DNA of 64,000 nt from the sequence record MK817115.1. One strand, 5' to 3'. The DNA comes from Escherichia phage vB_EcoM_phAPEC6. The notes under the pieces were generated by a model that did not search any database, was not told the DNA's origin, and worked only from the letters and a program-made list of their open reading frames with translations. Shown here in pieces: positions 3,526-36,980 of the stretch (position 1 is the stretch's first letter; each line of letters starts with the position of its first letter). The position numbers and the translations under genes were made by a program.

Positions 3526-5490
3526 ATGAGTATAAATCGAATTAGAGGTGATGGTGGTGTAATTATTGATAGTAAATCTTTTTTAGAGTTACCGAAAGCA
3601 CCATCAAAAGAAACCGCTGATGTAATAAGATCAGGGATGATTAGATACAATAAGGAATGGAAATCATTTGAAGGTGTTCTGGATTTTGAAGATGGTACTA
3701 TGGCATATCGCCGCTTTGCAAACTTAGATGCAAATGGTAAACTTCTTACTTCCCAATTACCAGATTCAGTAACTAGTGGTTTACAGTTTGTTGGTACATA
3801 CAATCCTATCCCAGATGATATTGATCCACCTTTAGCACAAACACCACTACCAGCACCAGCAGCATCACTAAATGGTGATTATTATGTTGTTCGTGGTATT
3901 ATGGATGCAGCACAAGCACACTTTGAAGCAAATAACCCACAAACAAGTCCGGTTACATTTACACCTACGAACCCAACTGGTCAAGGTAATTGGATTGAAA
4001 TTTTATATTATGTTGACTCCAATCCAAATATATCTGGTGCTAAACTTGTAACATACGCTTTTGCAAGAATTATTACTGCATCTATTCCTAGTACTGGTCA
4101 TGATGGTCTTAAAAATTTAGCAACAGATGCTGACTTAACCAAACCATTTGCTTCAGGCGTTCCAATGAACCAAACCGCACTATCAGATGGTGATTGGATC
4201 ATTATAACTGAAGATAAAAACATACGTCTACGCCAGTCAAGAACAAGCATTTCTGCTGCTTCTGTATTATATGACAATACAGTAATGATTGCAAACCATC
4301 GTCAATTTAGAACAAACGCAGGAACCGTACAAACATCCATAGATAACGTTGTGATTGAATGTTTACGTAGAACTGGTGATTCCATGTATAATGATGGAAC
4401 AAGCGGCTCAGGGCGTTTTGGTGTGGTCTATGGTAGTGCAGCAGCACCAGCATTGACATTTAATAACAATCCATTTGATCCAACCAATAACCCAGGTAAT
4501 GATCCTGCAAAATGGTCAGACGCTAATACTGGTATATTTCATCCAGCCGATGACGCAATTGGGTTCAGTACTGCTGGAACTGAACGTATTAGAATTAATA
4601 ATTCAACATTAACATTATACCAAACAACTTCAACCCCAGCATCAACCCCAGTACTAAGATTTGATAATGCAACCAATACTAATGTTGGACTAAGTGCTAG
4701 TAGTAATATTATTTCATTTAGTTCAATGAATAAAGTACAAGTTGAATTTAAAAATGGTGAAAGTGCGTTTCATGGTAATATTGTGGTTGATGGTACAAGT
4801 ACATTGACTGGTGATACATCAGCTAGTAATATCACTGCTAGTGGTAATTTGAACATTCAAGGTAATACTACATTAGGCGATGCTGCATCTGATACAATTA
4901 CAGTTAATGGAGTTAGTACGTTTACAGCAAACACTAATTTCAATGGAACAACTAATAAATTTAAAAATATAAATCTATTAGCTAATGGTATAATTACATT
5001 AGAAAGTACTACTAATCAAAGTACAATCCAATTAGTTAGTTCTGATTTAAAACTATCAATGGGTAATTATGCTGATGTAAGTATCTATGATAATGGAACT
5101 ATAAGAACACGTTTTAATAGATATGGTATCCAATTACCAGTACTAGCTACTATTGATAACTCTGTTGGCGTTGATGGTATGATTGCATACTCCAATACCG
5201 AGCGTACTTCAATGCAAAAAGTTCAAGGTCAATGGGTTCCAATTGGTTCAGGTTCAGTGAGAACCGATGCTTTTACAATTTCATCTTGGGTATTAAGTGG
5301 TAACTACTACACCCTTACTGTAACAGCCTCAAACATCGTCACAGCAGAGATACAGGAACAGGTTAGTCCTGGTGTCTATACTCGTGTTGAGGTCGATAGC
5401 GTTACGTTTAACGGCACTAACGTAGTGTTTAGTATACCTTCAACTCCTGATGTACGTTTCGACGGAAGAACATTGGTAACAATTAGATAA
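3526..5490 (+). CDS. Tail fibre-like structural protein
   Basis: 654 aa; shares motif LGDAASDTITVNGVSTF with LGDAAADTLTVNATSSF of the first ORF; RBS GAGG upstream; followed by strong hairpin terminator. Confidence 0.55.
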   Translation: MSINRIRGDGGVIIDSKSFLELPKAPSKETADVIRSGMIRYNKEWKSFEGVLDFEDGTMAYRRFANLDANGKLLTSQLPDSVTSGLQFVGTYNPIPDDIDPPLAQTPLPAPAASLNGDYYVVRGIMDAAQAHFEANNPQTSPVTFTPTNPTGQGNWIEILYYVDSNPNISGAKLVTYAFARIITASIPSTGHDGLKNLATDADLTKPFASGVPMNQTALSDGDWIIITEDKNIRLRQSRTSISAASVLYDNTVMIANHRQFRTNAGTVQTSIDNVVIECLRRTGDSMYNDGTSGSGRFGVVYGSAAAPALTFNNNPFDPTNNPGNDPAKWSDANTGIFHPADDAIGFSTAGTERIRINNSTLTLYQTTSTPASTPVLRFDNATNTNVGLSASSNIISFSSMNKVQVEFKNGESAFHGNIVVDGTSTLTGDTSASNITASGNLNIQGNTTLGDAASDTITVNGVSTFTANTNFNGTTNKFKNINLLANGIITLESTTNQSTIQLVSSDLKLSMGNYADVSIYDNGTIRTRFNRYGIQLPVLATIDNSVGVDGMIAYSNTERTSMQKVQGQWVPIGSGSVRTDAFTISSWVLSGNYYTLTVTASNIVTAEIQEQVSPGVYTRVEVDSVTFNGTNVVFSIPSTPDVRFDGRTLVTIR

Positions 5491-27038: not shown

Positions 27039-28151
27039 TTAGAACATTTGTTTGATTGCTTCGTAACGAAGTTCACAAACAAAATCACGAATTTCTGACG
27101 TTTCAAGTTCACCATCTTTGACCATTTGCTGAATATCAGGCAATTCAACATCAGTATAACGATCATAAACTTTAATAATTAGATCTTCAAGTTCTAAATC
27201 AATTTCTTTTCGCAAAATGAAGTATTCCAAAACTTTATAAAGGAATTCTTCACCTCCGTTATTTTTAATATTCATATCCAATAAAATATTACCCATTTCA
27301 ATAGGGGTCTTTTTACGGAATGTTTTGATATCATCACGGAAACGTTTGATATAATTACTAAATTTAACATACTTAACTGGAACTTTAATAGCACCGTTAA
27401 GTACTGAATCATTATTTACTTCTTCATTTTCAAGAAGAATAGACCACAGAAAATATGGTTTATATACATCTGTACAGTTCTCTGCAATATAATCAATAAG
27501 GTCTAAATTCTTTTTGGTCAAAGATGTATTAAACACCTTTTCGTAATAACCAAATTTACTTAGCGTCTTAAGGAACTTTGCAGGCTTTTCTTCGGAAAAT
27601 GCTTTTTCGAATTCCACAAACACACGGTCAGGAACAAGATGATTTAGCTCACCACTATTGACCATTCCAATAGCGAGTTCCTCAGTGCTTTCATGGATAG
27701 TAAAGTCAGAATAACGAGTAGCAAATCGAGCAAGACGTAACACACGTAATGGATCTTCTTTAAAATGGTCAGACACATGACGTAGTACCTTGTTCTTGAT
27801 ATCAGCTTTACCACCGTATGGGTCAATGTGAATTTGTAGTACTGGATCATACGAAATTGCATTTATTGTTAGGTCACGGCGATACAAATCTTGTTCGAGT
27901 GTTACGCCTTTTGTATCCACTTCAAAGCCACCATATCCAGTACCAGTTTTACGCTCAGTACGGGCTAATGCGTGTTCATTACCTTCTGGACTTAGATATA
28001 CAGGGAAATCTTTACCTACTTGCTTATAGCCAATACTTTGCAAGTACTTAATATCAGATTCAGTTGCTCCGACAATGACATAATCTTTGTCTTTTGCACG
28101 AAGACCCATTAAACGGTCACGGACGTAGCCACCAACCAAATACTTTTTCAT
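27039..28151 (-). CDS. cca: CCA-adding tRNA nucleotidyltransferase (head domain, no obvious HD domain)
   Basis: MKKYLVGGYVRDRLMGL...ARTERK...RRDLTINA...EDPLRVLRLARFA matches bacterial CCA enzyme motifs. Confidence 0.85.
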   Translation of the reverse strand: MKKYLVGGYVRDRLMGLRAKDKDYVIVGATESDIKYLQSIGYKQVGKDFPVYLSPEGNEHALARTERKTGTGYGGFEVDTKGVTLEQDLYRRDLTINAISYDPVLQIHIDPYGGKADIKNKVLRHVSDHFKEDPLRVLRLARFATRYSDFTIHESTEELAIGMVNSGELNHLVPDRVFVEFEKAFSEEKPAKFLKTLSKFGYYEKVFNTSLTKKNLDLIDYIAENCTDVYKPYFLWSILLENEEVNNDSVLNGAIKVPVKYVKFSNYIKRFRDDIKTFRKKTPIEMGNILLDMNIKNNGGEEFLYKVLEYFILRKEIDLELEDLIIKVYDRYTDVELPDIQQMVKDGELETSEIRDFVCELRYEAIKQMF

Positions 28152-28286: not shown

Positions 28287-28709
28287 TTAAATTAATCTAT
28301 CACGTAGACGGTCGTAATATTTTTCGTGTATAGCTAGTATACACTGATATGCAGAATAGTCAATGCCAAATGTATCATCAATGAACATGTACTGATCAAG
28401 TGTTTCTGGTCCATTATCATCAACTGGTAATGTCCCTTCTTTTTTTGATAGGGTGTGCCACATCAACTCACTTTCAATATGGTGAGTTGCGTATGTCAAT
28501 TCAATCTTACTTTTTCTTAGTAAAATTAACAATTCATCATTGTCGTCGAGTGCATTACGAAATTTAATACGAACAGTACCCTGAAAATTATTAGTGTACA
28601 TAACACGATGTTGATTATATGTAACTAAACCACGTCTTTCAGTACTGATTTCATGTTCAGCAAAGTACTTTAACGTTTCATTAAATTTTGGAATTTTAGT
28701 AACGTCCAA
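28287..28709 (-). CDS. Hypothetical protein, paralog of 28696-29112
   Basis: Shared motif F(I/E)DDTFGID(Y/F)..YQ.I. Confidence 0.5.
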   Translation of the reverse strand: MDVTKIPKFNETLKYFAEHEISTERRGLVTYNQHRVMYTNNFQGTVRIKFRNALDDNDELLILLRKSKIELTYATHHIESELMWHTLSKKEGTLPVDDNGPETLDQYMFIDDTFGIDYSAYQCILAIHEKYYDRLRDRLI

Positions 28710-29112
28710 TCACATAATCCTCATAAAGTTCGTATACCCTCATTATACTCTGATATGTTTCAAAGTCAATGCCAAAGGTATCCTCAATGAACTGATATTG
28801 CATAAACTCTTCCTCTGTAGCAGCAATAGGAAGAGTCCCGTTTCGTTGTTCTGTTGATTGAACATCCTCAATATACATCAACACTATACTTTCATCCAGA
28901 TTTATATCTATCATAAAAACATCTTCACTATAAAATAAGTTATATGTACGGATGAAGAGATTTCCTGTTCTATCATAACTTGACACGTGTGTTTCATAAT
29001 ACATTTTATCTAAACTAAAGAACAAACCTGTACTATCTGGCTTTTTAGTATTTTTTAATTTAATTTCGATAGCATCAATCATAGGTTTAATATCAAACTT
29101 TTTCATATACAA
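28696..29112 (-). CDS. Hypothetical protein, paralog of 28287-28709
   Basis: Shared motif FIEDTFGIDFETYQSI. Confidence 0.5.
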   Translation of the reverse strand: MYMKKFDIKPMIDAIEIKLKNTKKPDSTGLFFSLDKMYYETHVSSYDRTGNLFIRTYNLFYSEDVFMIDINLDESIVLMYIEDVQSTEQRNGTLPIAATEEEFMQYQFIEDTFGIDFETYQSIMRVYELYEDYVIGRY

Positions 29113-29288
29113 ATCACATACTTATTACTATGTGGTTCGTAACAATATGAATCATTTACCTTAATACCAGGCTTAAGTTCAATAGTTGTTCCTGTTTCTG
29201 TACTGGGTTCTGCATCACAATAAATCATCACACCAACCCCGACTAGTAAGGATATGATACATATAACTATACATATTGTATATTCCAT
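29103..29288 (-). CDS. Small membrane protein
   Basis: 61 aa with N-terminal hydrophobic helix ICIVICIISLLVGVGVMIY. Confidence 0.4.
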   Translation of the reverse strand: MEYTICIVICIISLLVGVGVMIYCDAEPSTETGTTIELKPGIKVNDSYCYEPHSNKYVICI

Positions 29289-29301: not shown

Positions 29302-29697
29302 TTATAAAAAGTAATTATACAGTTTATTGTACAATATAAAAAGGTCTTTCACATTATCATAAGTAATATCAGATACATCATGAATTAATGATAACTGAAA
29401 AAATGAAGCTTCGTCTATTTCTGCTGGAATTATAACATCACCATCGTCTTCGTCCATTTTATTGGTGTAGTATTTTATGTGATCTACATTCAACTCAATA
29501 GAAAACGCAATGTTGGTTTTTGTATAATCTTCAATTAATCCAATATATTGAGATTTTTCATTAATAAAAAATCCAATCCCAACACAACGGTTATCTGGAT
29601 ATGGATAGTACCATCTATTAATAACTAAGTGTTCAGGTAAGTCCATATCATGTGTTGATATTAGAGATTTTACAATTTCCATCCAGGAATAATTCAT
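29302..29697 (-). CDS. Hypothetical protein
   Basis: 131-aa ORF. Confidence 0.45.
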   Translation of the reverse strand: MNYSWMEIVKSLISTHDMDLPEHLVINRWYYPYPDNRCVGIGFFINEKSQYIGLIEDYTKTNIAFSIELNVDHIKYYTNKMDEDDGDVIIPAEIDEASFFQLSLIHDVSDITYDNVKDLFILYNKLYNYFL

Positions 29698-29713: not shown

Positions 29714-29740
29714 GAAAAGGGACAGAATTAATCTGTCCCT
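29714..29740 (-). terminator. Intrinsic terminator after HPF-like gene
   Basis: AGGGACAGA / TCTGTCCCT 9-bp stem, U-rich tail on minus strand. Confidence 0.55.
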
Positions 29741-29750
29741 TTAGTATATA

Positions 29751-30083
29751 TTACTCTTCGTTTTCTGTCAAATCATCAAGAACTGGGTGTTCTGGATGGT
29801 TTCGGCGGTGTAATTTAATGCTTTTGTCTTTACTGAATACAGTTTCCATTTTTTCAAATGAATCACCAATTGCTTTGTATAAATCTGCTGCATCGGCAGT
29901 AACTGATTTACTACCTGATGTTAGAGTCACAGAGTATTGAGACTTATGCTCTTTCTTCACATGAACTTCAATATCCATTACAGTTGAAGTACGGAACTTT
30001 TCAAGACATTTAGCACCATCGTAAATTGCATCTTGAATTGCAAGAGTAAAATCAACATTACCTTGAATATTTAATTTTAGCAT
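29751..30083 (-). CDS. hpf: Ribosome hibernation promoting factor (HPF/RaiA/YfiA family) homologue
   Basis: MLKLNIQGNVDFTLAIQDAI...LEKF...DLYKAIGDSFEKME aligns by eye with E. coli HPF MQLNITGNNVEITEALREFV...DMYAAIDGLIDKL; about 110 aa as short-form HPF. Confidence 0.6.
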   Translation of the reverse strand: MLKLNIQGNVDFTLAIQDAIYDGAKCLEKFRTSTVMDIEVHVKKEHKSQYSVTLTSGSKSVTADAADLYKAIGDSFEKMETVFSKDKSIKLHRRNHPEHPVLDDLTENEE

Positions 30084-30099
30084 AATTTACCTACCTTTT

Positions 30100-31059
30100 T
30101 TAGAGTGAACTTAACAACAAATCTGCTCGGTTTGTAACTTGACGATACCATAAGGAATTCATAATTTCTTTTTTAAATTTCTTAGGGTTATCATTTTTCA
30201 CACTTTTCCAAAGTTTATTAAACGTTGCTAATTTATCAACACCCATTGTATAGGACATTTCATAAAGAATACGTTGTTGTTCTTTGGTCAGATTTACTGC
30301 TTCTTTTTTCTGCATCAATAATAAAAAGTCATCATATGTTCTTTTCATATCTTGCATCAAAAGTTTGTTGGCTTGAGCTTTGGTAATACCGTTTCTGTAC
30401 TTAATCGCATCAGATTCTTTTCTACCCAAATAATGCCCATAACCTATTGTATAATTACCTTTCATGTCCTTGTAGGGATGAAATTTAGAATTGTGGAAAG
30501 GAACTCCGACTTTCCCACCAAGTAAACGGCGTTTGTTCTTGGACTGAAATTCAATTGAACCTTCAGCTTCTTTGATGTGATTGACAATTTCTGGATCATT
30601 ATAATCAAACAGTACAGTCACATCTGGTAACAATACGTTCTTCAAATCCTCTTTTGTTGGGATAAAGATACCCTGAGAAGTATGAAGAGTAGCATTTAAA
30701 TTGATATTTTTCAACAAAATAACATACTCTTCAAGTTGTACATTTTTAGGTTTAAACTTTTTAGCAATAGAATAATAACTATCACCAGGTTGAACCGTAT
30801 AATGCTTCTCGCCGCGTGGAACATCCTTTGATATTTCTACCTTTGGTAATTCCTGCTTTTGAATTTGCGTAACTTGTGGTTTTAAATTGTGTACCTGACT
30901 TTCGTCCGATGATGATACACGATCATTTTGAGAAAAACCATAAAATCCAATCGCAGCGACAAGTACTGTGCAAACTAGAACACCATAAGTAGTCTTAGTT
31001 TTCAGTGCTTTTTTCGCTTGTTTCAAAACGCCTCCTTTGTTGATTGTTAAGATGGGCAA
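30100..31059 (-). CDS. Endolysin: N-terminal membrane anchor + LysM + T4-lysozyme-like (GH24) domain
   Basis: TM segment VLVCTVLVAAIGFYGF; LysM YTVQPGDSYYSIAKKF; lysozyme motifs GNYTIGYGH and WYRQVTNRA parallel T4 gpe YTIGIGH and WYNQTPNRA. Confidence 0.75.
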   Translation of the reverse strand: MPILTINKGGVLKQAKKALKTKTTYGVLVCTVLVAAIGFYGFSQNDRVSSSDESQVHNLKPQVTQIQKQELPKVEISKDVPRGEKHYTVQPGDSYYSIAKKFKPKNVQLEEYVILLKNINLNATLHTSQGIFIPTKEDLKNVLLPDVTVLFDYNDPEIVNHIKEAEGSIEFQSKNKRRLLGGKVGVPFHNSKFHPYKDMKGNYTIGYGHYLGRKESDAIKYRNGITKAQANKLLMQDMKRTYDDFLLLMQKKEAVNLTKEQQRILYEMSYTMGVDKLATFNKLWKSVKNDNPKKFKKEIMNSLWYRQVTNRADLLLSSL

Positions 31060-31194
31060 TCACAAAGATGGCAAAGAGGCCATTTGCAAAAGCCTCATCG
31101 GACTTTCTACAGTACAAAAACGTTCTTTTCAAATGTTTAAGTAGTATAGCATATTTTTATTTTATTACAAGACATATTTACTGTAAAAACCACA

Positions 31195-31605
31195 TTAATC
31201 GTAGTAAGTTCTACCTACAGTGATGTGATATTTAAAGTACTTGGTTGGTAGTCCTAGTTCATTTCTAATATGTGTGATGAAATCATCTTCAAATTCAATG
31301 ATAAAGAATGAACCTGGATTCTTTTTATCTTTTACTATCTCAATACAAGGATTGAACTTTATCTTTACTTTCATTCCATCGTACTTTTTCCAGTACTCTG
31401 GATTTGGTGGCACTTCACCACGAACGATACTGACATGTGCTCCCCATTGTGGGTCTTTAATATCAATATGTAAGTCAGTTCTGATGAAGTACTGGTAGTA
31501 TCGAACCAACTGTAATGGAAGTTGTAGTACTAACCAGAAGTCCTTCTTCTTTTTCATAGTGCCACGTTCTGGATCATACACCAGAGTTCCTTCCATTTCA
31601 ATCAT
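31195..31605 (-). CDS. 2H phosphoesterase-like protein (LigT/Acb1-like candidate)
   Basis: Two H-x-[ST]-x motifs (GAHVSIV and YHITVG) about 73 residues apart; 136 aa. Confidence 0.45.
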   Translation of the reverse strand: MIEMEGTLVYDPERGTMKKKKDFWLVLQLPLQLVRYYQYFIRTDLHIDIKDPQWGAHVSIVRGEVPPNPEYWKKYDGMKVKIKFNPCIEIVKDKKNPGSFFIIEFEDDFITHIRNELGLPTKYFKYHITVGRTYYD

Positions 31606-36539: not shown

Positions 36540-36980
36540 TTATTGTAAAACTTTAAGTTTGTAAAGTGTTCCTTCAACAAAACTCATAATATCTTCTAAT
36601 GTGTTTACACTGCCGTAATCACCTGATTCTTCAAGCATATCATGAATTGCTCTACATTGCTCAACATATTCTTCAAGAATTGGTACACAATCTTCAATTG
36701 GTGTAAAACGATAACTATTACCAGTTCCAACTTGTAAAGCACCACGATTATTCATGATACCTTCAACAAATGCGTCTACATATTCTGGTAATTCTTTATA
36801 TAGTTCATCTAATTGTAAATGCTTTGTATAAAAATGACATTGTAAGTGCCAGTTATGTGCAGCAGAACTTAAAAACAAACTATTTTCAATAAAAGTTAAT
36901 AGTACTTCATCATACGAATTATCTTCTTCAGTACTTCCGATAAAGTCCATTACGTGTCGTAAATCATTAATATCTTCCAT
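36540..36980 (-). CDS. Hypothetical protein
   Basis: 146-aa ORF. Confidence 0.45.
   Translation of the reverse strand: MEDINDLRHVMDFIGSTEEDNSYDEVLLTFIENSLFLSSAAHNWHLQCHFYTKHLQLDELYKELPEYVDAFVEGIMNNRGALQVGTGNSYRFTPIEDCVPILEEYVEQCRAIHDMLEESGDYGSVNTLEDIMSFVEGTLYKLKVLQ

What the first reader, a model, noticed from the sequence alone, without database searches (positions are those of the whole stretch)
29751..30083. Phage-encoded ribosome hibernation factor (HPF/RaiA) homologue
The 110-aa product aligns along its length with short-form HPF/YfiA (LNI.GN.V..T.A, LEKF, DLYKAI, K.E motifs in the same order and spacing as E. coli HPF). HPF binds the 30S decoding region and silences translation; a phage copy could modulate host ribosomes during takeover or protect ribosomes in stressed cells. 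It has its own terminator and sits beside the endolysin.
Basis: partly seen in the sequence, partly recalled or inferred. Interest (0 to 1): 0.65.

Follow-up and report, generated by a model that had tools for sequence, protein, structure and literature searches.

The report
Jumbo-phage HPF/RaiA ribosome-factor homologue
The gene is a real but unusually divergent copy of the bacterial ribosome-hibernation factor HPF/RaiA carried by a 121Q-like jumbo coliphage; it is already annotated as such in public databases, phage HPF genes were described in 2019, and what it does to the host ribosome is still untested.

Summary
Window 29751..30083 (minus strand) encodes a 110-aa protein. It passes Pfam's curated threshold for Ribosomal_S30AE, and its predicted fold (beta-alpha-beta-beta-beta-alpha) matches only solved HPF/RaiA/pY structures among the top 34 hits.

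It is not new. The window is a 121Q/PBECO4-like Asteriusvirus jumbo phage. RefSeq names the 99%-identical 121Q gp533 'HPF/RaiA family ribosome-associated protein', and UniProt calls the PBECO4 copy 'ribosomal subunit interface protein'. Mizuno et al. 2019 described phage HPFs, including the GAP32 gene, which I show to be the positional orthologue.

What this analysis adds:
- It is the second cistron of a LysM-lysozyme->HPF operon conserved across Rak2-like jumbo phages. A structurally conserved terminator ends the operon.
- A sigma70 promoter for the next gene has its -35 written in the HPF tail codons.
- The gene is under purifying selection (dN/dS 0.12-0.27). Its core has been swapped by recombination between near-identical phages.
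- It is the most derived of the syntenic phage copies. All three helix-alpha1 basic residues that contact 16S h44 in cellular homologues are lost, new lysines appear on the sheet, and a RaiA-like basic-then-acidic tail is kept.

Ribosome binding is plausible but unproven. The only phage HPF tested, from rV5, did not co-purify with ribosomes. Interest is modest.

The parts
29751..30083 (-). CDS, 110 aa. Divergent HPF/RaiA-family (Ribosomal_S30AE) protein: core residues 1-94 (beta-alpha-beta-beta-beta-alpha) plus a disordered basic-then-acidic tail, residues 95-110.
   Evidence: Pairwise dN/dS is 0.12-0.27 in all but the near-identical window/121Q pair, which has only 3 differences.
30084..30099 (-). 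16-nt intercistronic spacer with the HPF Shine-Dalgarno sequence (AAGGTAGG). The same 16-nt spacing is found in six Asteriusvirus relatives.
30100..31026 (-). Upstream cistron: membrane-anchored LysM + phage-lysozyme protein, 308 aa from the annotated TTG start. The ORF listing extends it to 31059.
   Evidence: It is orthologous in XaC1 (43% identity, E=9e-81) and is found in 70 jumbo-phage records.
31143..31170 (-). Candidate operon promoter P1: sigma70-type with an extended -10 (TTGTAA, 16 nt, TGcTATACT). It is conserved among the Asteriusvirus loci.
   Evidence: This is inference; no transcript data exist.
31027..31111 (-). Operon leader. It holds an invariant imperfect inverted repeat (TGTAGAAAGTCC-loop-GGCTTTTGCA, 31085..31111), followed by a predicted helix that pairs GCCATCTTTGT with the lysozyme Shine-Dalgarno sequence.
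   Evidence: No Rfam match.
29716..29742 (-). Intrinsic-terminator hairpin (11 bp) followed by a U-tract. It ends the lysozyme-HPF operon.
   Evidence: Stem sequences differ while the structure is kept in EJP2, Hallingskeid, Munch and XaC1. The Munch record annotates a terminator at the same place.
29743..29771 (-). Promoter P2 for the downstream gene: -35 TTGACA (the codons for Leu105-Thr106 of HPF), a 17-nt spacer, and -10 TATACT directly after the stop codon.
   Evidence: Use of TTG-ACA in at least 5 of 6 diverged lineages has p~5e-6 given this phage's codon usage.
29850..30093 (-). Recombination patch, running from the HPF ribosome-binding site to codon 78. It has 51 differences in 244 bp against slurp01-type phages, while the flanks differ by about 4 per kb.

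Best explanation
The gene encodes a divergent, RaiA-like short member of the HPF/RaiA ribosome-hibernation family. It is inherited vertically in Rak2-like jumbo phages as the second cistron of a lysozyme-HPF operon.

Most likely mechanism (inferred, not shown): the folded core (residues 1-94) inserts into the cleft between head and body of the host 30S subunit in vacant 70S ribosomes. There it overlaps the A- and P-site tRNA and mRNA positions. Binding would be mainly through the retained basic stripe on helix alpha2 (K78, K85, K87, K90, R93, R94) and a lineage-specific lysine patch on the sheet (K43, K44, K47, K59, K70). The 16-residue basic-then-acidic tail would then run toward the platform, as the RaiA tail does, and hinder RMF-dependent 100S dimer formation.

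The net effect would be to park idle host ribosomes as protected 70S monomers under phage control.

What is shown: family membership, fold, purifying selection, operon structure and conservation across phage genera. What is inferred: ribosome binding, the binding site, the role of the tail, and the benefit to the phage.
For: Family and fold:
- PF02482 scores above its curated cut-off.
- Fold topology and Foldseek hits are exclusively HPF/RaiA/pY.
- Family hallmark residues are kept: I6, G8, T13, A15, I16, D67, Y69, A71, I72, K78.
- Five of the ten positions that are mostly basic in cellular-type homologues are kept (29, 78, 85, 87, 94), most of them on alpha2.

Selection and inheritance:
- dN/dS is 0.12-0.27 in all informative pairwise comparisons.
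- The gene occupies the same syntenic slot (lysozyme - HPF - CCA-adding enzyme - NUDIX - glutaredoxin) in Asteriusvirus, Hallingskeid, Munch, GAP32 and XaC1.
- Pfam scores form a graded series from 78.6 bits (XaC1) to 35.7 bits (window), which fits descent from a canonical HPF.

Tail:
- The protein is 110 aa against 113 aa for RaiA.
- It has a conserved KLHRRNHP...DLTEDEE motif.
- Acidic C-termini are present in every jumbo-phage orthologue, including XaC1 and GAP32, where no promoter overlaps the coding sequence.
- RaiA's extended tail is thought to block RMF and 100S formation (review PMC10502375).

Context: related phages also encode IF3 and the CCA-adding enzyme, so the lineage invests in translation factors.
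Against: - No experiment exists for this protein or for any close relative.
- The rV5 phage HPF did not co-purify with 70S or 100S ribosomes, although that preparation used a high-salt wash.
- The alpha1 basic triad (positions 17, 23, 26) is R/K in 72-81% of the cellular-type homologues compared. In RafH the alpha1 basic residues (K21, R24, R28) contact h44 phosphates. The triad is entirely lost here, and the exposed face of alpha1 is the most variable part of the phage family.
- The counterparts of E. coli HPF R33 and K93, which touch E-site tRNA, are S33 and L91.
- Two alpha2 basic positions (81, 89) are also lost.
- The protein fails the NCBIfam equivalog cut-offs.
- Part of the tail's conservation (Asp-Leu-Thr) is explained by an embedded -35 hexamer rather than by protein function.
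- RaK2 lacks the gene in the syntenic slot, so it is dispensable for the clade.
Confidence: 0.5

Rival explanations
1. Neo-functionalised HPF fold. The protein no longer occupies the ribosomal decoding cleft. It uses its remodelled surface (lysine patch on the sheet, neutral or acidic alpha1, conserved tail) to bind a different partner, for example another RNA or a phage or host protein.
For: - The alpha1 basic triad and both E-tRNA-contact equivalents are lost.
- It has the lowest Pfam score of all the syntenic orthologues.
- Invariant lysines K44, K59 and K70 are new to this lineage.
- The rV5 HPF was not ribosome-associated.
- The fold resembles double-stranded-RNA-binding domains at lower Foldseek ranks, such as Dicer and Drosha partners.
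Against: - The alpha2 basic stripe and all fold hallmarks are retained.
- Divergence from a canonical HPF at the same locus is gradual, not abrupt.
- No alternative partner is suggested by any search.
- The net charge (pI 5.7) is similar to HPF (6.5) and RaiA (5.95).
Confidence: 0.25
2. It acts as a true HPF in the E. coli sense. It cooperates with host RMF to convert 70S ribosomes into 100S dimers, driving the host translation apparatus into hibernation.
For: In sequence, the core is slightly closer to E. coli HPF than to RaiA:
- BLASTP gives 29.6 against 24.6 bits.
- The phage-family profile against PDB gives HPF E=7e-6 to 4e-5 and RaiA E=6e-3.
Against: - E. coli HPF is 95 aa and ends at His95, which stacks on G693. 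This protein carries a further tail of about 16 residues, like RaiA, whose tail is thought to exclude RMF.
- NF007780, the HPF equivalog, scores 16.8 bits against a cut-off of 125.
- Expression of the rV5 HPF had no discernible effect on 100S formation.
Confidence: 0.12
3. The protein has no function. The ORF persists only because its 3' end carries the -35 element of promoter P2 and because it links the lysozyme gene to the terminator.
For: - TTGACA is embedded in codons 105-106 with nucleotide-level conservation.
- RaK2 lacks the gene.
Against: - dN/dS is 0.12-0.27 over the whole ORF, with saturated dS between lineages.
- Fifty-one invariant residues are spread along the chain.
- The reading frame is intact in all well-assembled genomes across several genera.
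- The ribosome-binding site is conserved.
Confidence: 0.03

Closest known systems
121Q gp533 (YP_009102120) and PBECO4 protein (UniProt L7TII8): the same gene in the reference Asteriusvirus genomes
   Same: They are 99.1% and 98.2% identical over all 110 residues, with the same neighbours. A 100% identical protein is named 'HPF/RaiA family ribosome-associated protein' by NCBI.
   Different: Nothing of substance differs. The window's phage is nearest to vB_EcoM_CRJP21 (99.5% DNA identity over 2.2 kb). None of these proteins has been studied experimentally.
E. coli RaiA (YfiA, protein Y), 113 aa
   Same: - Same fold (4v8i and 4y4o among the Foldseek hits).
- Similar length.
- A C-terminal extension beyond alpha2 that is first basic and then acidic...HKGEARRA...FVEEVEEE in RaiA...KLHRRNHPEHP..DLTENEE here.
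- Similar net charge.
   Different: - Only 23% identity over 79 residues.
- No RaiA-specific NCBIfam model hits at E<=1.
- RaiA has R17, R23 and K26 on alpha1; the phage protein has Q17, G23 and C26.
E. coli HPF (YhbH), 95 aa
   Same: - It is among the best solved-structure matches: 6h4n_x with TM 0.82 and rmsd 1.7 A, and the best single-sequence PDB hit, 4v8h_AX.
- 26% identity.
- Shared motifs: LNI.GN, T.A, DxYxAI and K at position 78.
   Different: - HPF has no tail and ends at His95, which stacks on G693.
- HPF R17, K23, K26, R33, R83, K91 and K93 have no basic counterpart at the aligned positions.
- HPF works with RMF to form 100S. The tail here argues against that.
Cronobacter phage GAP32 gp183, the jumbo-phage HPF reported by Mizuno et al. 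2019 (Nat Commun 10:752)
   Same: - Same syntenic slot: lysozyme - (two HNH genes inserted) - HPF - CCA-adding enzyme - NUDIX - glutaredoxin.
- A GAP32-like metagenomic contig has lysozyme and HPF adjacent.
- Structural match E=8.9e-8, TM 0.75.
- Acidic C-terminus.
- The same invariant leader motif lies upstream of the lysozyme.
   Different: - Pairwise sequence similarity is essentially gone (16.9 bits, E=0.054).
- GAP32's copy is more canonical (Pfam 53.6 bits against 35.7).
- Its downstream promoter lies after the stop codon rather than inside the ORF.
rV5-type (Vequintavirinae) phage HPF, the only phage HPF tested experimentally
   Same: It is a phage-encoded short PF02482 protein in coliphages (56.7 bits). 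Such genes are widespread: 130 phage-collection records match E. coli HPF by tblastn, most of them about 135-kb Escherichia phages.
   Different: - It is a different lineage in a different genomic context.
- It is 44% identical to E. coli HPF.
- It keeps K23 and K26 on alpha1 and has a Gly/Lys-rich basic tail instead of an acidic one.
- It was not found in ribosome fractions.

Membership tests
HPF/RaiA family (Pfam PF02482 Ribosomal_S30AE) | Significant match to the family profile above the curated gathering score | tested here: met
   35.7 bits against a cut-off of 23.7, E=1.5e-8, covering profile positions 2-84 of 88. All ten database relatives carry PF02482 except one truncated copy.
HPF/RaiA family (Pfam PF02482 Ribosomal_S30AE) | beta-alpha-beta-beta-beta-alpha fold with two helices packed on one face of a four-stranded sheet | tested here: met
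   The AF2 model has topology E-H-E-E-E-H. The top 34 Foldseek PDB hits are all HPF/RaiA/pY chains, with TM up to 0.82.
HPF/RaiA family (Pfam PF02482 Ribosomal_S30AE) | Conserved sequence hallmarks: G at the end of beta1, T/A at the alpha1 N-cap, D-x-Y-x-A-I at the start of alpha2, and a Lys in alpha2 | tested here: met
   G8, T13, A15, D67, Y69, A71, I72 and K78 are invariant in the phage family. They match columns that are 62-100% conserved in the 32 cellular-type sequences compared.
HPF/RaiA family (Pfam PF02482 Ribosomal_S30AE) | Basic residues on the exposed face of helix alpha1 that contact the 16S rRNA h44 backbone | tested here: not met
   Positions 17, 23 and 26 are K/R in 72%, 81% and 81% of the compared homologues. 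In the phage family they are N/Q/H, E/G/D and A/C/V/S/T. The contact role is taken from the RafH structure paper.
HPF/RaiA family (Pfam PF02482 Ribosomal_S30AE) | Basic stripe on helix alpha2 | tested here: inconclusive
   K78, K85, K87 and R94 are kept. Positions 81 and 89 are lost (T and I/V), but K90 and R93 lie adjacent.
HPF/RaiA family (Pfam PF02482 Ribosomal_S30AE) | Binds the 30S decoding cleft and inhibits translation | not testable with these tools
   This needs biochemistry or cryo-EM. The only phage HPF assayed (rV5) was negative under high-salt conditions.
NCBIfam TIGR00741 (yfiA equivalog, HPF/YfiA family) | Score above the equivalog cut-off | tested here: not met
   28.4 bits against a cut-off of 40.9.
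E. coli-type short HPF (NF007780; RMF-dependent 100S promoter) | About 95 aa with no C-terminal extension, and a score above the equivalog cut-off | tested here: not met
   The protein is 110 aa with a conserved tail of about 16 residues. NF007780 scores 16.8 bits against a cut-off of 125.
RaiA / YfiA / protein Y | C-terminal extension beyond alpha2, thought to occlude the RMF site | tested here: met
   Residues 95-110 extend beyond alpha2, are predicted disordered, run basic then acidic as in RaiA, and are conserved. Only presence and composition were tested, not the effect on RMF.
RaiA / YfiA / protein Y | Specific sequence relationship to RaiA rather than to HPF | tested here: not met
   No RaiA model appears among the NCBIfam hits at E<=1. 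RaiA chains score lower than HPF chains with the phage-family profile (E=6e-3 against 7e-6).
Long HPF (Gram-positive type, self-dimerising C-terminal domain) | Roughly 180-190 aa with a C-terminal dimerisation domain | tested here: not met
   The protein is 110 aa with a single Pfam domain. Matches to long HPFs cover only their N-terminal domains.
Dodecin (PF07311) | Score above the gathering threshold, and a dodecin fold | tested here: not met
   20.5 bits against a cut-off of 22.5. No dodecin appears among the Foldseek hits listed.

The most novel reading that the evidence does not exclude
The Asteriusvirus protein may be an HPF that has been turned against hibernation. It has lost the h44-clamping residues of helix alpha1 but kept a RaiA-like tail. 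On this reading it would bind vacant host ribosomes loosely enough to be displaced when phage mRNA and the phage-encoded IF3 arrive. While bound, it would exclude host RMF, HPF and RaiA, and possibly ribonucleases. This would keep the ribosomes of starved or stationary-phase gut E. coli out of 100S hibernation and available for a slow-growing jumbo phage. The exchange of the core allele between otherwise near-identical phages would then reflect adaptation to different host ribosome or hibernation-factor backgrounds.
Probability: 0.15. Interest if true: 0.7.

Novelty: already known. Interest (0 to 1): 0.3.

Why it matters
Phage-encoded hibernation factors have been catalogued since 2019, but none has a demonstrated function. 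It is unknown whether they silence, protect or re-awaken host ribosomes. That question bears on how phages replicate in non-growing bacteria, which is the normal state in the gut and a known weakness of phage therapy.

This gene is a usable test case:
- It is vertically conserved in a whole clade of jumbo phages.
- It is under purifying selection.
- It comes in naturally swapped alleles.
- It shows a clear gradient of surface remodelling from a canonical HPF (XaC1) to this highly derived form.

As a discovery it adds little, because the annotation already exists.

Tried and rejected
1. Dodecin. The Pfam hit (E=5.9e-4) is below threshold and has no structural support, so it was rejected.

2. 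Poxvirus OPG117/D5 and designed-protein hits in the PDB sequence search (E 0.05-0.25). These are chance-level.

3. Positive selection as the cause of the local divergence hot spot (83.6% protein identity inside ~97% identical DNA). Rejected: dS in HPF is 0.58 against 0.016-0.08 in the flanking genes, and omega is 0.14. It is a recombination patch.

4. Natural knockouts. Four Salmonella phages (SD-1, SD-2, SD-6, SD-15) show partial HPF deletions. The gaps have ragged, differing ends and coincide with the divergent patch and another variable region, and the lysozyme is also broken in three of the four genomes. They are most likely assembly artefacts, so they were not used as evidence of dispensability.

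5. The leader 12-mer as a general phage regulatory motif. It occurs once in the window. Of 10 IMG/VR loci, only the three jumbo-phage ones have lysozyme, HPF and the CCA enzyme downstream. The other seven share nothing beyond the 18 specified bases, which I read as chance matches in a very large collection. There was no Rfam or tRNA match at those sites.

6. Rfam on the operon region and a tRNA scan of the whole window: nothing found.

7. P0011, a 1605-aa protein with 29 repeats, was the second-best hit of the representative search. It is a tandem-repeat oddity, not a relative.

8. Transcriptomic or proteomic timing data for this clade. None was found. The genome papers only list the gene.

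9. Polikanov et al. 2012 could not be read. The role of the RaiA tail is cited from a review instead.
Full report
**1. What is at the coordinates**

Window 29751..30083 holds a 110-aa ATG-initiated ORF on the minus strand. A Shine-Dalgarno sequence (AAGGTAGG) precedes it. It begins 16 nt after the stop of a 308-aa gene (30100..31026).

Evidence for HPF-family membership:
- Its product matches Pfam PF02482 (Ribosomal_S30AE, 'sigma-54 modulation protein') at E=1.5e-8 and 35.7 bits. This is above the curated cut-off of 23.7 and spans almost the whole profile.
- It fails NCBI's stricter equivalog models: TIGR00741 scores 28.4 against 40.9 bits, and the E. coli HPF model scores 16.8 against 125.
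- PHROGs files it in an 'unknown function' family, phrog_34864.
- An AlphaFold2 model built on nine family members (pLDDT 77.8) has the topology beta1-alpha1-beta2-beta3-beta4-alpha2 followed by a disordered tail.
- The first 34 Foldseek hits in the PDB are all HPF, RaiA/pY or long-HPF N-terminal domains. Examples are E. coli HPF in the 100S ribosome (6h4n_x, TM 0.82, rmsd 1.7 A) and Listeria HPF (E=2.3e-7).

**2. Where it comes from, and whether it is new**

The window is a 121Q/PBECO4-like jumbo myovirus of the genus Asteriusvirus:
- 99.5% DNA identity to vB_EcoM_CRJP21 and 98.5% to 121Q over 2.2 kb.
- The protein is 99.1% identical to 121Q gp533. RefSeq calls gp533 'HPF/RaiA family ribosome-associated protein', and the original submitters called it 'putative sigma 54'.
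- A 100% identical sequence carries the same NCBI name.
- The PBECO4 copy is UniProt L7TII8, 'Ribosomal subunit interface protein'.

Mizuno et al. 2019 already reported HPF genes in cultivated phages, namely six rV5-like coliphages and the jumbo phage GAP32, and in viromes. They found that the rV5 protein was expressed in E. coli but absent from 70S and 100S fractions and without effect on 100S formation.

A tblastn search with E. coli HPF finds 130 records in the phage collection. Most are about 135-kb Escherichia phages, many annotated 'ribosome hibernation factor'.

Genome papers on Sharanji and XaC1 simply list the gene among translation factors. I found no experimental work after 2019. 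The finding is therefore already known as an annotation and as a phenomenon. The function remains open.

**3. Evolutionary setting**

In the 5.8-billion-protein collection the protein has only ten 90%-identity clusters, almost all seen on jumbo-phage-sized contigs of up to about 370 kb.

An exhaustive profile search of 1.84 billion representatives shows an isolated family. After its own cluster and a truncated copy, the next full-length relatives (E about 1e-9 to 1e-6) are the 'ribosome-associated inhibitor' proteins of Salmonella phage Munch/7t3 and Klebsiella phage fENko-Kae01. Ordinary short HPF/RaiA proteins follow at E about 1e-5 to 1e-3.

The gene order lysozyme - HPF - (small ORFs) - CCA-adding enzyme - NUDIX - glutaredoxin/thioredoxin is kept in these phages:
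- six Asteriusvirus genomes
- Erwinia phage Hallingskeid
- Munch
- Xanthomonas phage XaC1, whose lysozyme is 43% identical (E=9e-81)
- GAP32, where two HNH genes are inserted. A GAP32-like contig lacks them.

The GAP32 gene of Mizuno et al. is thus the positional orthologue of this one. Pairwise similarity has nonetheless decayed to noise (16.9 bits), and only structure links them (TM 0.75).

RaK2 has an unrelated 150-aa ORF in the slot.

| Syntenic copy | Pfam PF02482 score (bits) |
|---|---|
| XaC1 | 78.6 |
| Munch | 62.3 |
| Hallingskeid | 54.4 |
| GAP32 | 53.6 |
| EJP2 | 48.5 |
| Window | 35.7 |

The window's version is the most derived of these.

**4. Selection and mosaicism**

Pairwise dN/dS for the gene is 0.12-0.27 in every comparison except the near-identical window/121Q pair, which has only three differences. 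The protein is therefore functional.

Many relatives are about 97% identical in DNA around the gene yet only 83.6% identical in this protein. This is not positive selection:
- Against slurp01, dS is 0.58 in HPF but 0.016-0.08 in the flanking genes.
- The differences form a sharp patch at 29850..30093, with 51 differences in 244 bp. It runs from the ribosome-binding site to codon 78.
- The last 32 codons and both flanks are nearly identical.

The core of the protein has been exchanged by homologous recombination between otherwise near-clonal phages.

**5. Operon anatomy**

- **Promoter P1.** Upstream of the lysozyme lies a sigma70-type promoter with an extended -10 (31170..31143), conserved in Asteriusvirus.
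- **Leader.** The leader contains an imperfect inverted repeat, TGTAGAAAGTCC-loop-GGCTTT(G)TGCA. It is invariant in Asteriusvirus, Hallingskeid, Munch and GAP32, and the loop varies. A predicted helix then pairs with the lysozyme Shine-Dalgarno sequence. HPF has its own Shine-Dalgarno sequence, so it could be translated even if the lysozyme is masked. This last point is inference.
- **Terminator.** The operon ends in an 11-bp hairpin plus U-tract (29716..29742; -17.8 kcal/mol, z=-4.3). The stem sequence differs but the structure persists in EJP2, Hallingskeid, Munch and XaC1.
- **Promoter P2.** Overlapping the end of the ORF is a near-consensus sigma70 promoter for the next gene: TTGACA, 17 nt, TATACT (29771..29743). 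Its -35 is the codon pair TTG-ACA for Leu105-Thr106. That exact pair is used in at least five of six diverged lineages, although codon usage predicts it only 6% of the time (p about 5e-6).

Part of the striking 'DLT' conservation in the tail is therefore a DNA-level constraint. The acidic character of the tail is also present in GAP32 and XaC1, where the promoter does not overlap the ORF.

**6. Does it look like a working ribosome binder?**

I aligned nine family members, four Munch-type proteins and 32 other homologues, including E. coli HPF and RaiA. That set comes from hits to the phage profile, so it is biased toward similarity with the phage protein.

*Retained:*
- All fold hallmarks are kept.
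- Ten positions are K/R in at least half of the non-phage set. The phage family keeps five: 29, 78, 85, 87 and 94.

*Lost:*
- The other five are 17, 23, 26, 81 and 89.
- Positions 17, 23 and 26 are the exposed basic triad of helix alpha1. In the ribosome-bound mycobacterial homologue RafH, the alpha1 basic residues contact the h44 phosphate backbone, the alpha2 arginines contact the decoding-centre strand, and a sheet patch contacts h31.
- The residues aligned with E. coli HPF R33 and K93, which touch E-site tRNA, are S33 and L91.

| Protein | Residues at positions 17 / 23 / 26 |
|---|---|
| E. coli HPF | R / K / K |
| E. coli RaiA | R / R / K |
| XaC1 | K / Q / K |
| Munch | R / C / K |
| Hallingskeid | E / H / K |
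| EJP2 | H / E / H |
| Window | Q / G / C |

The triad erodes stepwise along the phage lineage.

*Gained:* the family has invariant lysines at 44, 59 and 70, plus K43 and K47. The exposed face of alpha1 is its most variable region.

The constraint has moved from alpha1 to the sheet, alpha2 and the tail.

The tail (KSIKLHRRNHPEHP..DLTEDEE) makes the protein 110 aa long. Its basic-then-acidic extension resembles that of RaiA (113 aa...FVEEVEEE) rather than tail-less HPF (95 aa). RaiA's tail is thought to block RMF and hence 100S formation. In sequence, the core is marginally nearer HPF than RaiA.

**7. Interpretation**

Family membership is secure. The most likely mechanism (confidence about 0.5) is RaiA-like occupation of the 30S cleft of idle 70S ribosomes, using alpha2, the new lysine patch and the tail. 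The ribosomes would then be held as monomers rather than as 100S dimers.

Rival readings:
- The fold has been redeployed to another target (0.25).
- It promotes 100S with host RMF, as E. coli HPF does (0.12).
- It is kept only for its embedded regulatory DNA (0.03, contradicted by dN/dS).

None of these can be separated without biochemistry.

The neighbouring lysozyme is plausibly the endolysin. In the related phage phAPEC6, only the 96-kDa lysozyme of the two predicted was found in virions. I could not map gene numbers between the two genomes, so this is only suggestive.

**8. Verdict**

This is a real, correctly recognised, already annotated phage HPF/RaiA homologue. It would not surprise a specialist.

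Its value is as a well-defined test case for the unresolved question of what phage hibernation factors do. The useful details added here are the loss of the alpha1 triad, the RaiA-like tail, the conserved operon with overlapping promoter and terminator, and the allele swapping. Interest is 0.3.

Noticed in passing
window 31027..31111 (minus strand); also L001-L008, L015, L017, L022: The leader of the lysozyme-HPF operon contains an imperfect inverted repeat, TGTAGAAAGTCC-loop-GGCTTT(G)TGCA. It is invariant across four jumbo-phage genera while the loop and surroundings vary. A predicted helix follows that sequesters the lysozyme Shine-Dalgarno sequence. There is no Rfam family. The arrangement resembles the ribosome-binding-site masking of early T4 lysozyme transcripts (from my own knowledge). 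It is absent from XaC1 and RaK2.
   Followed up: partly
window 29743..29771 (minus strand): A consensus sigma70 promoter (TTGACA, 17 nt, TATACT) for the downstream gene overlaps the last seven HPF codons. Its -35 hexamer is the Leu-Thr codon pair, and it is conserved at synonymous sites in Escherichia, Erwinia and Salmonella jumbo phages. The -10 abuts the terminator hairpin, so transcripts from this promoter would begin at or within the hairpin.
   Followed up: yes
window 29850..30093: A sharp recombination patch: 51 differences in 244 bp against slurp01-type phages, inside DNA that is otherwise about 99% identical. It replaces HPF residues 1-78 and the ribosome-binding site but not the tail. 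At least two HPF core alleles circulate within the 121Q/PBECO4-like group of phages.
   Followed up: yes
L009-L012 (Salmonella phages SD-15_S21, SD-2_S15, SD-1_S14, SD-6_S16): These deposited genomes (310-326 kb) show ragged deletions of 108-180 bp inside HPF and of 702-815 bp in the paralogue region 28346..29160. The lysozyme is also interrupted in three of the four. The gaps sit on the most divergent segments, so they look like assembly artefacts rather than biology.
   Followed up: partly
window 36540..36980 (minus strand): A 146-aa protein matches DUF5856 (99.8 bits), with a weak ferritin-like hit. In 121Q the syntenic gene appears to be gp518, annotated 'starvation-inducible DNA-binding protein'. 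This mapping rests on position and similar size only. It would be a second stationary-phase-type host function carried near the HPF gene.
   Followed up: no
window 28287..28709, 28696..29112 and 29302..29697 (minus strand): The overlapping ORFs of 140 and 138 aa share a C-terminal motif (GTLP...QY.FI.DTFGID..Y...Y) and look like tandem paralogues. The 131-aa gene just after the HPF terminator gives weak PHROG hits to several unknown-function families. This block is the most variable part of the locus between relatives.
   Followed up: no
window 27039..28151 and 31195..31605 (minus strand): RNA-related genes flank the operon. One is a CCA-adding enzyme (PolyA_pol head domain, 66.8 bits). The other is a 136-aa protein with a sub-threshold 2H-phosphoesterase match (25.8 bits against 27). 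Relatives continue with NUDIX, glutaredoxin and macro-domain genes. There are no tRNA genes in the 64-kb window.
   Followed up: partly
L016 (Klebsiella phage RaK2), locus 4438..4890: RaK2 has a 150-aa ORF with no Pfam match in the slot between the lysozyme and the CCA-adding enzyme, where its relatives carry HPF. The gene has therefore been lost or replaced in Alcyoneusvirus.
   Followed up: partly
P0011 (protein from the representative library): A 1605-aa protein made of about 29 near-identical 54-residue repeats (…KAARKAIHQVEAKLYETVEDSYTKLAG…) scored 144 bits against the phage HPF profile through its alpha2-like segment. It is probably an assembly or tandem-repeat oddity.
   Followed up: no
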